DNA from: Escherichia coli
Lineage (GTDB): Bacteria > Pseudomonadota > Gammaproteobacteria > Enterobacterales > Enterobacteriaceae
Assembly (NCBI RefSeq): GCF_030384885.1
Contig: NZ_CP128613.1
Reading direction: 5' to 3' (one strand)
Length of the DNA stretch: 64,000 nucleotides
Shown here: positions 12,001 through 15,000 of the stretch, piece by piece
Layout of the letters: each line of letters starts with the position of its first letter
Numbering within the stretch: position 1 is the stretch's first letter
Program-made: the position numbers

Positions 12001-15000
12001 CGCGACCCCGTGCGCCGGTCCAGTTCGCATATGCCACAGACGCTCGTTGCAGCACATCCAGTTTTGCCTGTTCGACCTGCGAGGCAGAGATTTTTTTTTG
12101 CCCTTCAGCCTGTTGCACCTGAGCCGAAACCGCGCCGCCCTGATACAACGGCGCGTTGACGTTCAACTGTAACTGGTCGTCCCAGTACGAGCGGTCGCTG
12201 GTCTGGTAGCGCGTTTTGCCGCCCTGAATACTGAGCGTCGGCCAGTATTGCGCTTTCGTTTTTTCCACGCCGTACTGTGCAGACTGGCGTAAGTTTTCTG
12301 CCGCCAGTACAAGCGGGATGGACTGGTAATCAATATTTTTCAACGATACCGGCTGCTCGGCTAATTCAGCAGGTGGCTCGGCTATCGCCTCCGGCTGTAC
12401 GCCAGTAAGCACCGCCAGTTGCGCTTTGGCGCTCGCCATCTGCGCCTGATATTGCTCCAGCGTCGAGCGCATTCCCGCTATACGCGTCTGGGCCTGCAAT
12501 TCATCTGACGATGAGTTCAGACCAGCGTTAGCGCGCAGCGCCGCCATGTTGTAGACGTTTTCCAGCGAGTGGATATTGCGTTGAGCCGCATCGCACAACG
12601 CCTGATAACGACTGACCTCCATATAGGCAGTCGCCGTTTTTTCGGCAACATCGGTTAAAGTTGCCATCAATTTAAAGCGGTAGCTGTCACGAGCGGCGGT
12701 TTGCAGTTTGATATCGTTATCTGTTTTACCGAAGTCATACACCAGCTGTGTCAGGGTTATGCCATACGAAACGTTGTTATCAAGCCTGCCGCTGGAGTCC
12801 GTTTGCCGTGACGGCCCCGCGTTGCCGGTTAATCCAACGTGCGGATACCAGGCACTTTTGGCTTCATCAATTTGTGCTTCGCCAATACCTATCTGCGCCG
12901 CCTGTTGAGTGACGTCGGGATTTAGCGCAAAGGCGCGTAATATACTTTCCTGTAAAGATAATCGGGCAACTGGCGTTACCGCTGGGGCGTTCGCCCATTG
13001 TGGCAGCGGTGCAGCAATTGTAGCTTCTCCCATCACCATAAAACTTATTAAAAAAATAAGTCCATTATTTTTACGGTTTTTAAACTGGAATCGCGCCATA
13101 GATAAGTCACTTCCTTCCAGGTCATTATTTTAACTAGTTTTTATAACCAGTCTCATTTTATTAAGAAGGGTAATAACTTGTGCACCTCTTTTGTCGAACA
13201 TTGAGATTGGAAAAGAAATGCAGTTAAAAAGCTTATACGTTATTTATTTAGAATACACTACGACTTTTAGATTACCATCATACGCATTAAGAATAATCCA
13301 CAGCAATAAGTGATTAGCATCACAGATTTATCACGTATATATCATTTTTTTGTGACTTATTTATTAAAGGAATAAGAAAGGAAATTTGAATTAAAGACAA
13401 AGGCGCAGTACAGAAAGTACTGCGCGCAGAGAGGTTTTATACGGCTTTATTGCGCTTCATGACCATTGCCACAATAAGGCTGAGTAAGAGTGCGCCAATA
13501 ATCCATATCAGCGCACGACTGCCCTGGGACCACAGACTGTAGATGAAGCCAACGATCACCAACAACATAACCAACGTGCCAACGATAAGAATCGGCAACG
13601 AGGCATGGATATCATGACGCAGGCGCATCGCCACCACAAACACCGCCAGGTAGCAGATCAAAAAGGTGGCACTGGCAACGCTGGCGAGTGAGCCTAAATT
13701 TAGCGCCGCCGTCATCAACATAATCAACACCACGACGATGATGTTGCCCCAGGTACTCTGCCGCCACAGAGATTTATTCATTAGCTTCGGCAGTTCGCGT
13801 TCGCTGCCCATGTTGTCCATGATGTTAAACACGGCGAACAGGTTCGCGTTGATGGCTGAAGCCGTCGCCAGTAAAGCACCGATGACAACGATCACATAAC
13901 CCACATGCCCGAGCAGCGGAGAAGCTGCCTGCGCTACGGCGGTATCGGCATATTTTTCTAACTCTAATGCCGATACATCGCTAAGCAGTACCAGCGCCAG
14001 CGCGATGTAAAGCAGTGTGGTAACGCCAATCGCCACCAGAAACGCCCGTGGCATAATGACCGCCGGATCTTTCACTTTATCCGCCGCGTTCGCCATCATG
14101 CCAAAGCCCGCATAGGCAAGGAAGGTTATCCCGATACAGGAGAAGAACGCACCGGAGCTGGGAGGCGCAGAGACGGAAATATGCGCCGGTTGTAGCGACC
14201 AGACACCGGCAATAATCAGCAATAACAGGATCATCATTTTAATGCCGACGAGGATCACTTCCAGCCGTCCTACCGCATGGTTGCTTAAGGAGTTGAATAG
14301 CGTCATCACCGCAATGATCCCCAACGCATAGAGCAGAATAAGGTGCTCCTCCTGGCTGCCTTCATGCAAAAACTGCACGGCATAAGCGCCAAAAGCACGG
14401 GCGACCATGGCGATGCTTACCGCCAGCGTCAACAGGTACAGTAACGAGAGCGCCAGCGAAAAGACGCCGTTGCCTAATCCGCGACGAAAGAAGTCGATAA
14501 TACCGCCATTGCTGGGATAGCTCGCCCCCAGACGCGCATAGGCATAACCAGAAAACATCGCCACAATACCACCAAAAGCAAAGGCGACCCAGGTCGAGGC
14601 TTCCATTAGCAACGCAGCCTGCCCCAGCAGCGCGAAGATCCCCGCCCCCACCATTGCCCCAATGCCAATGGAAACGACGTTCCATAGACCGAGGGGTTTG
14701 TTACCGTTATTACCTTCCGTGTTCATCATGATCAGCCCTTAAACACGTTATAGCCGAGTTGCTTAGCGACCGATGCCACCATTTTTTGACCGCGAACACT
14801 GTTGCCTTCTTCGTCCAGTGGTGGTGAAAACGCGGCAATTCCCATCACGCCAGGGACGACCGCCAGAATACCGCCACCTACACCGCTTTTGCCCGGTAAA
14901 CCAACGCGATACGCCCAGTCACCGGAGCAACCATACAGCCCTTCCATCATCATTTCGGCCAGAATGTACGGCACGTTGTCGGCCTGAAGAACGCGTTTAT

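What the first reader, a model, noticed from the sequence alone, without database searches (positions are those of the whole stretch)
13100..13436. AT-rich 337-bp upstream region of the TolC-like/adhesin operon
The stretch between ybaT and the TolC-like gene is markedly AT-rich with A/T tracts, in contrast to the GC-rich adhesin gene. It is the likely promoter region of the secretion locus and a candidate for xenogeneic silencing (H-NS type) or other dedicated regulation.
Basis: inference. Interest (0 to 1): 0.3.

Follow-up and report, generated by a model that had tools for sequence, protein, structure and literature searches.

The report
Known promoter region of adhesin-secretion operon

Summary
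Window 13100-13436 is exactly the gap between the ybaT stop and the start of a TolC-family gene, both on the minus strand. It has 31.5% GC, the lowest of 30 intergenic regions in the window, but its A/T tracts are no commoner than its composition predicts.

The window is E. coli 2013C-4282. The locus is O-island 28 of O157:H7 (Z0608-Z0635, ecs0540-0544): tolC, the giant adhesin siiEA, an ABC transporter, hlyD, then cueR.

The promoter reading is supported by published work on a 97%-identical sequence:
- Cappable-seq in EDL933 puts the main start at window 13243 (-10 TATTCT, 144-nt leader). It is at least 15-fold stronger in stationary phase.
- Z0608 is 55-fold RpoS-dependent.
- RstA binds a box at 13380-13393, which differs by one base in this strain.
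- A PhoB-dependent promoter was reported in 2010.

The gap also holds the ybaT terminator hairpin (13403-13425).

New here, by inference only:
- A CRP-like palindrome conserved across three Escherichia lineages.
- A conserved leader that can mask the ribosome-binding site.
- Evidence that K-12-type genomes lost the locus by deletion, which weakens the "xenogeneic" premise.

H-NS silencing remains untested.

The parts
13100..13436 (-). Whole ybaT-tolC intergenic region. It is the regulatory region and leader of the T1SS/adhesin operon (O-island 28).
   Evidence: ORFs; RefSeq annotation of an identical record; GC 31.5%.
13403..13425 (-). ybaT intrinsic-terminator hairpin (GCGCAGTAC-TTTCT-GTACTGCGC), followed by the tail CTTTGTCTTTAATT (13402-13389).
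   Evidence: Terminator scan. RNA fold -16.6 kcal/mol, z = -6.4. The stem is conserved in Escherichia sp. E1V33 and E. whittamii with one A-to-G change that gives a G-U pair, and the T-tract is better there.
13100..13408 (.). The part of the gap that is absent from K-12-type E. coli. The deletion end-point lies at about 13409, inside the terminator hairpin.
   Evidence: About 4400 of 5370 genomes match only from query position 360, which is window 13409. Alignments to strain CM56 confirm this.
13380..13393 (-). Published RstA box, here TAATTCAAATTTCC (O157: TAATTCAAATTACC). It lies at -294 to -281 from the ATG and -150 to -137 from TSS1.
   Evidence: Niu 2025 ChIP-qPCR and EMSA with and without the box. 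Position and one-base difference. The exact 40-mer of this strain occurs in 191 of 945 genomes. The box is not conserved outside E. coli.
13352..13369 (-). Pho-box-like 18-mer CTTTAATAAATAAGTCAC (4 mismatches to CTGTCATAWAWCTGTCAY). It is followed after 10 bp by TATATA (13341-13336), preceded by TGA, so the whole reads TGATATATA. This is a candidate PhoB-dependent promoter.
   Evidence: p = 0.023 against shuffles. Nearly invariant across species. The assignment is an inference, because Yoshida 2010 could not be read.
13319..13336 (-). Second Pho-box-like 18-mer ACGTGATAAATCTGTGAT, in phase with the first (33 bp apart). Its first half-site is not conserved.
13309..13324 (.). CRP-like palindrome TGTGATGCTAATCACT, centred at 13316.5. 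That is -73.5 from TSS1 and -91.5 from TSS2.
   Evidence: 9 of 10 core positions match; p = 0.008 against 1000 dinucleotide shuffles. The half-sites are invariant while 4 of 6 spacer bases differ in E1V33 and E. whittamii. Binding was not tested.
13250..13255 (-). -10 hexamer TATTCT of the main promoter P1.
   Evidence: Lies at -12 to -7 from the mapped TSS. Same element as the BPROM prediction and the bTSSfinder sigma70/sigma38 prediction. Invariant in all 7 sequences.
13243..13243 (-). Main transcription start TSS1, equivalent to EDL933 579751.
   Evidence: Cappable-seq, detected in 6 of 8 conditions. Read scores in exponential phase: 0, 4.1, 0 and 2.4. In stationary phase: 64.7, 53.0, 31.3 and 9.2. 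Mapping verified.
13225..13225 (-). Minor transcription start TSS2, equivalent to EDL933 579769, with -10 TATAAG at 13237-13232.
   Evidence: Cappable-seq, one condition.
13100..13243 (-). 144-nt leader (5' UTR). The first ~30 nt and roughly the last 90 nt are almost invariant across species. The predicted helix CCUUCU/GGAAGG would mask the Shine-Dalgarno sequence.
   Evidence: There are no compensatory pairs, and the single-sequence fold gives z = -1.49, so the structure is unproven.
13110..13118 (-). Shine-Dalgarno sequence GGAAGGAAG, 10 nt before the ATG at 13099.
   Evidence: Read from the sequence; invariant.
11744..13099 (-). TolC-family outer-membrane gene (tolC28 / Z0608 / ecs0540), first gene of the operon.
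13437..14729 (-). ybaT (APC-family permease), the upstream gene on the same strand.

Best explanation
The gap is a composite control region with three jobs.

1. Insulation. A strong hairpin terminator just after ybaT (13425-13403) ends most transcription from the acid- and RpoS-induced glsA-ybaT operon.

2. Promoter. About 160 bp downstream of the hairpin lies a promoter with a usable -10 (TATTCT) and a poor -35. It starts transcription at 13243 and is nearly silent in exponential growth. On entry into stationary phase it is switched on in an RpoS-dependent way.

3. Regulatory input. In O157:H7 the output is raised further by RstA bound about 140 bp upstream of the start, which the published work links to Ca2+. 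It is also raised by PhoB under phosphate starvation. I infer that cAMP-CRP acts as well, through the conserved TGTGA-N6-TCACT site at -73.5.

The 144-nt conserved leader then carries the ribosome-binding site of tolC. The operon continues through siiEA, the ABC transporter and hlyD.

Shown experimentally, but in O157:H7 rather than this strain: the TSS positions, the growth-phase pattern, the RpoS dependence, RstA binding and activation, and reporter activity. PhoB dependence is also reported for O157:H7, but I know it only from secondary citations, because the primary paper could not be read.

Inferred here: terminator function, the CRP site, the Pho-box assignment, and masking of the ribosome-binding site by the leader.

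The AT-richness is what a dense promoter, activator-site and leader region looks like. It needs no special explanation.
For: - Identity of the locus.
- Terminator hairpin.
- TSS at 579751 and 579769 in EDL933, mapped to window 13243 and 13225 with no indels.
- Stationary-phase read scores of 9.2-64.7 against 0-4.1 in exponential phase (column order checked against the log2FC values).
- Z0608 is 55-fold and Z0609 20-fold lower in an rpoS mutant.
- ECs0540 and ECs0541 rise by 3.5 and 4.1 log2 units at entry into stationary phase.
- RstA: qRT-PCR, lacZ fusion, ChIP-qPCR, and EMSA with and without the box.
- PhoB-regulated promoter cited from Yoshida 2010.
- CRP-like site and Pho-like boxes are rarer than chance in composition-matched shuffles.
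- Phylogenetic footprint: the core promoter from -38 to +32, the CRP half-sites and the leader are invariant across E. coli, Escherichia sp. E1V33 and E. whittamii.
Against: - All the experiments were done in O157:H7. This strain differs at 3% of positions, including one base in the RstA box (A to T in the TTACC half).
- siiEA is frameshifted here, so the system may not be functional in this strain.
- The RstA box lies unusually far upstream (-150 to -137). It matches the classical RstA consensus TACATNTNGTTACA poorly, and it is not conserved outside E. coli.
- The primary PhoB paper could not be read, so my Pho-box and -10 assignment is a guess.
- -73.5 is 1-2 bp off the usual class I CRP positions.
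- ybaT (70-fold), Z0608 (55-fold) and Z0609 (20-fold) show similar RpoS dependence. Some read-through of the terminator, whose U-tract is interrupted, therefore cannot be excluded.
Confidence: 0.85

Rival explanations
1. H-NS-type silencing. The AT-rich gap nucleates H-NS filaments that keep the operon off. RstA, PhoB and sigma-S act mainly as counter-silencers, which would explain why an activator site 140 bp upstream of the start can work.
For: - 68.5% AT over 337 bp, and 71.5% over 13038-13374, the most AT-rich stretch in 64 kb.
- The promoter is almost silent in exponential phase.
- The RstA site is distal.
- Weak opposite-strand TSSs inside the gap (equivalent to 13377 and 13286 on the plus strand) are typical of promoter-rich AT DNA.
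- By analogy, from general knowledge and not tested here: the Salmonella SPI-4 sii operon and many sigma-S promoters are H-NS-repressed.
Against: - No ChIP or hns-mutant data for this locus were found. The ETEC strain that has published H-NS ChIP-seq lacks the locus.
- The best match to the H-NS motif TCGATAAATT has 3 mismatches, as in 100% of shuffles.
- A/T tracts are not enriched.
- The AT-rich block is short and flanked by 52-59% GC genes, which gives little room for filament spreading.
- The locus is not obviously foreign.
Confidence: 0.3
2. Read-through only. The operon is expressed mainly as an extension of the glsA-ybaT transcript, and the gap merely holds a leaky terminator.
For: - Both genes are on the same strand.
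- The terminator U-tract is interrupted (CUUUGUCUUU).
- RpoS dependence is similar for ybaS/ybaT (19- and 70-fold) and for Z0608/Z0609 (55- and 20-fold).
Against: - Cappable-seq captures only primary 5'-triphosphate ends, and it finds a strong regulated TSS inside the gap.
- A plasmid lacZ fusion of the upstream region alone is active and RstA-dependent.
- The hairpin is strong, at -16.6 kcal/mol.
Confidence: 0.05
3. The gap encodes something of its own, such as a small protein or small RNA, and is not only a promoter and leader.
For: - Seven ORFs of 20-40 aa overlap the gap, including a 23-aa ATG ORF (13201-13130, minus strand) inside the leader.
- Weak antisense TSSs exist.
Against: - No Rfam family matches at E <= 1.
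- Against O157 the 23-aa ORF shows 3 non-synonymous changes to 1 synonymous. Its start region is not conserved in E1V33 or E. whittamii, and it has no Shine-Dalgarno sequence.
- The antisense TSSs appear in single conditions with low signal.
Confidence: 0.05

Closest known systems
Regulatory region of tolC28 (Z0608 / ecs0540) of O-island 28 in E. coli O157:H7 (Niu et al. 2025, PMC12758282; Yoshida et al. 2010, PMID 20640580; TSS map of Zehentner et al. 2023, PMC10469882)
   Same: It is the orthologous sequence: 97% identical over 356 nt with no indels, with the same flanking genes, -10 element, leader and Shine-Dalgarno sequence.
   Different: - This strain has TTTCC instead of TTACC in the RstA box, plus about 10 other substitutions.
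- siiEA is frameshifted here. In EDL933 it has an internal stop.
- None of the experiments were done in this strain.
Salmonella SPI-4 siiABCDEF upstream region (giant adhesin SiiE with its T1SS; H-NS-silenced and HilA-activated, from general knowledge)
   Same: An AT-rich promoter region in front of a T1SS and giant Ig-repeat adhesin operon. RefSeq names the adhesin here 'BapA-related adhesin SiiEA'.
   Different: - The gene order differs: here tolC comes first and there are no siiA/siiB homologues.
- The regulators differ: here RstA, PhoB and RpoS.
- H-NS control has not been shown for this locus.
Pho-regulon promoters (phoA, pstS): an 18-bp Pho box replaces the -35 element, 10 bp upstream of the -10
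   Same: CTTTAATAAATAAGTCAC, then 10 bp, then TATATA reproduces that geometry. PhoB dependence of the operon is published.
   Different: - There are 4 mismatches to the consensus.
- No TSS has been mapped for this putative promoter, because the Cappable-seq conditions were phosphate-replete.
- The main mapped TSS lies 86 bp further downstream and has no Pho box at its -35.
Class I CRP-dependent promoters (CRP site centred near -61.5, -72.5, -82.5 or -92.5)
   Same: A TGTGA-N6-TCACT palindrome centred at -73.5 from TSS1 and -91.5 from TSS2. The half-sites are conserved and the spacer is free to vary.
   Different: CRP binding and crp dependence have not been tested, and none of the papers read mentions them. 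The site also overlaps a Pho-box-like repeat.

Membership tests
Bacterial promoter region with its own transcription start (sigma70/sigma-S type) | A primary (5'-triphosphate) transcription start inside the region, on the strand of the downstream gene | tested here: met
   Cappable-seq TSSs at EDL933 579751 and 579769, equivalent to window 13243 and 13225. The data come from the orthologous O157:H7 sequence, not from this strain.
Bacterial promoter region with its own transcription start (sigma70/sigma-S type) | A -10 element at -12 to -7 from the start | tested here: met
   TATTCT at 13255-13250 lies exactly at -12 to -7 and is invariant in 7 sequences. The -35 is poor (ATGGTA at a 17-bp spacing).
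Bacterial promoter region with its own transcription start (sigma70/sigma-S type) | The isolated fragment drives a reporter | not testable with these tools
   Published for O157:H7: a tolC28 upstream region-lacZ fusion in pHRP309 is active and RstA-dependent.
H-NS-silenced (xenogeneic) promoter | AT content well above the genome average over a few hundred bp | tested here: met
   68.5% AT against 47% for the window; the lowest-GC intergenic region of 30.
H-NS-silenced (xenogeneic) promoter | H-NS occupancy in vivo and derepression in hns mutants | not testable with these tools
   No dataset covering this locus was found. ETEC H10407 lacks the locus.
H-NS-silenced (xenogeneic) promoter | A high-affinity nucleation motif (TCGATAAATT-like) or phased A-tracts | tested here: not met
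   The best match has 3 of 10 mismatches, reached in 100% of shuffles. A/T runs are at the level composition predicts.
H-NS-silenced (xenogeneic) promoter | The DNA is horizontally acquired | tested here: inconclusive
   - The same glsA-ybaT-gap-tolC synteny occurs in Escherichia sp. E1V33 and E. whittamii.
- K-12-type genomes keep about 115 bp of the hlyD 3' end fused to half of the ybaT hairpin, which is a deletion scar.
- This points to an old resident locus, although its 59% GC adhesin is compositionally atypical for E. coli.
Pho regulon promoter | An 18-bp Pho box (two CTGTCAT repeats 11 bp apart) about 10 bp upstream of a -10 element | tested here: inconclusive
   Two in-phase 18-mers with 4 mismatches each (p = 0.023 against shuffles). 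The first has the canonical 10-bp spacing to TATATA. The primary paper that defines the real box could not be read.
Pho regulon promoter | PhoB- and phosphate-limitation-dependent expression | not testable with these tools
   Reported for ecs0540-0544 by Yoshida 2010, as cited.
RstA regulon target | RstA binds the region, and binding needs the box | not testable with these tools
   Published ChIP-qPCR (about 6-fold enrichment) and EMSA with and without the box in O157:H7.
RstA regulon target | Match to the RstA box consensus TACATNTNGTTACA | tested here: not met
   The published box matches 7 of 12 specified positions, and this strain's variant matches 6 of 12. The best match anywhere in the gap has 4 mismatches, reached in 99% of shuffles.
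Rho-independent terminator (of ybaT) | A GC-rich hairpin followed by a U-tract, just after the stop codon | tested here: met
   A 9-bp stem (6 GC pairs) with a 5-nt loop starts 11 nt after the TAA. Its free energy is -16.6 kcal/mol (z = -6.4), and its tail has 7 U in 10 nt. It is conserved across species. Termination itself was not measured.
Class I CRP-activated promoter | A TGTGA-N6-TCACA site on the correct helical face upstream of the start | tested here: inconclusive
   9 of 10 core positions match (p = 0.008), and the half-sites are conserved. The centre lies at -73.5 and -91.5, which is 1-1.5 bp off the ideal positions. Binding has not been tested.

The most novel reading that the evidence does not exclude
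Three things lie beyond the published RstA, PhoB and RpoS control and do not appear in the papers I could read.

1. A CRP-type palindrome conserved across three Escherichia lineages. It would tie expression of the adhesin and T1SS to carbon starvation.

2. A 144-nt leader that is nearly invariant across those lineages and could hide the ribosome-binding site.

3. 'O-island 28' may not be an acquired island at all. It looks like an old Escherichia locus. Its loss in K-12-type strains cut the ybaT terminator hairpin in half and removed the EHEC cueR promoter: the cueR TSS lies 160 nt upstream in EHEC against 19 nt in MG1655.
Probability: 0.35. Interest if true: 0.3.

Novelty: already known. Interest (0 to 1): 0.15.

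Why it matters
The operon contributes to early adherence and gut colonisation by O157:H7 (Niu 2025, abstract), so how it is switched on is of practical interest. The essentials are already published: the promoter, the transcription start, and control by RstA, PhoB and RpoS.

This re-examination adds little:
- A map of those elements onto this strain, including a one-base change in the RstA box that 191 of 945 island-carrying genomes share.
- A testable CRP site and leader structure.
- A correction of the evolutionary framing, from acquisition to loss in K-12.

None of this would surprise a specialist.

Tried and rejected
- Rfam scan of 12800-13700 at E <= 1 gave no match.
- The small-ORF reading is rejected. 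The ORFs are not conserved, the 23-aa leader ORF shows 3 non-synonymous changes to 1 synonymous, and it has no Shine-Dalgarno sequence.
- The sigma70 consensus scan found 2 promoter-like sites against 2.1 expected, and neither is the mapped promoter. Consensus scanning alone would have misplaced the start.
- Fur, GAD-box, PhoP, CpxR, OmpR, classical RstA and H-NS motifs are all at chance level.
- RNA structure of the leader: z = -1.49 for this strain, and 0 compensatory pairs in the 7-sequence alignment. This is not evidence for a structured RNA.
- The 13-nt inverted repeat between 13352-13364 and the start-codon region is rejected as functional. The G-to-T change in other species is not compensated.
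- Yoshida 2010 (PMID 20640580) is not held.
- H-NS data: nothing usable in the library, and ETEC H10407 carries the K-12-type deletion.
- The scan of other species found only Escherichia sp. E1V33, E. whittamii, a truncated E. coli copy, a mis-binned MAG contig and distant TolC homologues. E. fergusonii, cited as carrying siiCA-DA, was not recovered.
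Full report
**What is there**

The window matches E. 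coli strain 2013C-4282 at 100% identity. In that RefSeq record the 430-aa minus-strand ORF at 13437-14729 is ybaT, an APC-family permease. The 451-aa minus-strand ORF at 11744-13099 is a TolC-family outer-membrane protein.

Downstream on the same strand lie four more genes: a frameshifted 21.7-kb 'BapA-related adhesin SiiEA', a type I secretion permease/ATPase, an HlyD-family adaptor, and cueR. The cueR start overlaps the hlyD stop by 4 bp. This is O-island 28 of O157:H7, also known as Z0608-Z0635, ecs0540-0544 and tolC28-rtxA28/B28-hlyB28-hlyD28.

The finding's coordinates, 13100-13436, are exactly the ybaT-tolC intergenic region.

**Observation check**

- GC is 31.5% against 53.0% for the window. 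Only 0.17% of 337-bp sliding windows are as low, and the global minimum (28.5%) is at 13038-13374.
- Among 30 annotated intergenic regions of at least 60 bp, this one is the lowest (median 44%). Several others lie at 33-37.5%.
- The adhesin is 59.4% GC.
- A/T runs are not in excess of composition: 8 runs of at least 4 nt against 6.0 +/- 2.2.

The compositional observation is therefore real, but 'with A/T tracts' adds nothing beyond the base composition.

**Anatomy, read on the minus strand from ybaT towards tolC**

- The TAA stop of ybaT is at 13439-13437.
- The hairpin GCGCAGTAC-TTTCT-GTACTGCGC lies at 13425-13403. Its free energy is -16.6 kcal/mol, with z = -6.4 against shuffles. The tail is CTTTGTCTTTAATT.
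- The published RstA box lies at 13393-13380.
- Two in-phase Pho-box-like 18-mers lie at 13369-13352 and 13336-13319.
- A CRP-like palindrome, TGTGATGCTAATCACT, lies at 13324-13309.
- The -10 element TATTCT lies at 13255-13250, with the main start at 13243.
- A second -10, TATAAG, lies at 13237-13232, with a minor start at 13225.
- A 144-nt leader ends in the Shine-Dalgarno sequence GGAAGGAAG (13118-13110), followed by the ATG at 13099.

**Experimental evidence from the orthologous sequence**

The O157:H7 gap aligns to the window at 97% identity with no gaps. EDL933 coordinates therefore convert directly, as window = 13099 + (579895 - x).

*Transcription starts.* The Cappable-seq study of EDL933 (PMC10469882) lists a gene TSS for this tolC gene at 579751(+), detected in 6 of 8 conditions.
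- Mean read scores in exponential phase were 0 in LB, 4.1 in M9, 0 in acid and 2.4 in NaCl.
- In early stationary phase they were 64.7, 53.0, 31.3 and 9.2, in the same order.
- I verified the column order by reproducing the paper's log2 fold-changes from these numbers.
- A second TSS at 579769(+) appears in one condition.
- Weak opposite-strand TSSs occur at 579617 and 579708.
- The hexamer TATTCT sits at exactly -12 to -7 of the main TSS.

*Growth phase and RpoS.* Z0608 is 55-fold and Z0609 20-fold lower in an rpoS mutant in stationary phase (PMC2907692). ECs0540 and ECs0541 rise by 3.5 and 4.1 log2 units at the transition to stationary phase (PMC2241611).

*RstA.* Niu et al. 2025 (PMC12758282) report the following:
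- Operon mRNA is 3.25-4.85-fold lower in an rstA mutant.
- A tolC28 upstream-lacZ fusion depends on RstA and on Ca2+.
- The region is enriched about 6-fold in RstA ChIP-qPCR.
- An EMSA shift is lost when the box TAATTCAAATTACC (-294 to -280) is removed.
- Their BPROM promoter (-35 ATGATG, -10 printed as 'GTGATTC T', which corresponds to GTGTATTCT in the sequence) uses the same -10 as the mapped TSS.
- The paper does not mention H-NS, CRP, PhoB, the ybaT terminator or any TSS mapping.

*PhoB.* Yoshida et al. 2010 are cited as showing that ecs0540-0544 is activated by PhoB from a promoter upstream of the operon under phosphate starvation. I could not read that paper.

**What I add by analysis**

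*Motif statistics.* Against 1000 dinucleotide-preserving shuffles of the gap:
- The CRP core with at most 1 mismatch occurs in 0.8% of shuffles.
- A Pho box with at most 4 mismatches occurs in 2.3%.
- The classical RstA box, Fur, GAD box, PhoP, CpxR, OmpR and the H-NS 10-mer are all at chance.

*Other species.* A scan of one genome per species found the same glsA-ybaT-gap-tolC arrangement in Escherichia sp. E1V33 and E. whittamii. Overall the gap is slightly less conserved than the flanking genes, at 81-82% against 85-92%. The conservation is strongly patchy. The invariant blocks are:
- the terminator stem;
- CCTTTAATAAATAA;
- the two CRP half-sites, while 4 of the 6 spacer bases differ;
- a continuous block from about -38 to +32 around TSS1;
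- roughly the last 90 nt of the leader.

The RstA box is not conserved outside E. coli. Within E. coli, the exact 40-mer of this strain (the TTTCC variant) occurs in 191 of 945 island-carrying genomes, and the rest differ by 1-2 bases.

*CRP position.* The CRP-like site is centred at -73.5 from TSS1 and -91.5 from TSS2. This is close to class I positions but not exactly on them.

*Pho box.* The first Pho-like box is followed after exactly 10 bp by TATATA (preceded by TGA, so the whole reads TGATATATA). This is the canonical Pho-promoter geometry. It would predict a phosphate-starvation start near 13329, which the phosphate-replete Cappable-seq conditions could not have seen. This is inference.

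*Leader structure.* A consensus fold of the leader gives three helices, one pairing CCUUCU with the Shine-Dalgarno sequence. There are no compensatory changes, and the single-sequence z-score is only -1.49.

**Mechanism**

My best reading has three parts.
1. The hairpin insulates the secretion operon from the glsA-ybaT transcript.
2. A promoter with a weak -35 then fires in stationary phase in an RpoS-dependent way.
3. Its output is adjusted upward by RstA, by PhoB and probably by cAMP-CRP.

Read-through as the sole source of expression is essentially excluded by the primary TSS and the plasmid reporter. Some leakage is still possible, given the interrupted U-tract and the similar RpoS ratios of ybaT and Z0608.

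**H-NS**

The composition fits a typical H-NS target, and silence in exponential phase is compatible with repression. Beyond that there is no evidence:
- There is no specific motif and no excess of A-tracts.
- I could find no binding or mutant data.
- ETEC H10407, for which H-NS and CRP ChIP-seq are published (from my own recollection, not checked here), carries the K-12-type deletion.

The 'xenogeneic' premise is also weak.
- About 4400 of 5370 E. coli genomes match the query only from window 13409 rightwards.
- In such a strain, the last ~115 bp of hlyD are still present, fused to the right half of the ybaT hairpin, and are annotated as a truncated pseudogene.
- The K-12 state is therefore a deletion scar, and the locus is shared with other Escherichia species in the same place.

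I put H-NS involvement at about 0.3.

**Comparison and novelty**

This is the orthologue of an experimentally characterised regulatory region, so I rate it 'already known'. The points added here are modest and unproven: the CRP site, the Pho-box placement, leader conservation, the RstA-box polymorphism and the deletion origin of the K-12 state. Interest is 0.15.

Noticed in passing
window 13409 (junction); L002 2880-3040; L003 7950-8110: K-12-type E. coli, about 4400 of 5370 genomes, lack tolC through most of hlyD. They keep the last ~115 bp of hlyD fused to the right arm of the ybaT terminator hairpin. 'O-island 28' therefore looks like a locus deleted in K-12, not one inserted in O157. The 2025 paper describes it as an acquisition.
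   Followed up: yes
left of the window (cueR; L003 7564-7971; EDL933 604687): cueR overlaps the hlyD stop by 4 bp. Its TSS lies 160 nt upstream, inside hlyD, in EHEC, but only 19 nt upstream in MG1655 (Cappable-seq supplementary comparison). The deletion seems to have removed the EHEC cueR promoter and left cueR just downstream of ybaT, whose terminator is broken.
   Followed up: partly
window about 11935 (minus strand), inside tolC: The EDL933 Cappable-seq data list an internal TSS at 581059, which is 1164 nt into tolC and equivalent to window 11935. It is stronger in stationary phase (scores 16.8, 6.4, 11.5 and 3.4). This may be a second promoter for the adhesin gene.
   Followed up: no
window 11636-11743: The 108-bp gap between tolC and siiEA is also AT-rich, at 36.1% GC.
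   Followed up: no
window 1-11635 and beyond (siiEA): The giant adhesin gene is annotated as frameshifted in this strain and as having an internal stop in EDL933, where it was split into Z0609 and Z0615. In E. whittamii the tolC homologue is broken into ORFs of 219, 120 and 103 aa. The system is often degraded.
   Followed up: partly
window 13377 (+) and 13286 (+): Weak, condition-specific opposite-strand TSSs (EDL933 579617 and 579708) lie inside the gap. The first would run antisense into the 3' end of ybaT.
   Followed up: no
window 13162-13174 and 13373-13385: There is a direct repeat, on the minus strand ATTACCCTTCTTA and ATTTCCTTTCTTA. In O157 the upstream copy reads ATTACCTTTCTTA. The upstream copy overlaps the 3' half of the RstA box. 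The downstream copy lies in an invariant block of the leader and could be a second site for an OmpR-family regulator.
   Followed up: no
L007 (JAIJJM010000516.1): A 2.3-kb contig labelled 'MAG: Collinsella sp.' is about 98% identical to this E. coli ybaT-tolC stretch. It is almost certainly a binning contaminant.
   Followed up: no
window 48320-48865: The acrB-tomB gap is the other long AT-rich intergenic region in the window (546 bp, 37.5% GC). It lies upstream of tomB-hha.
   Followed up: no
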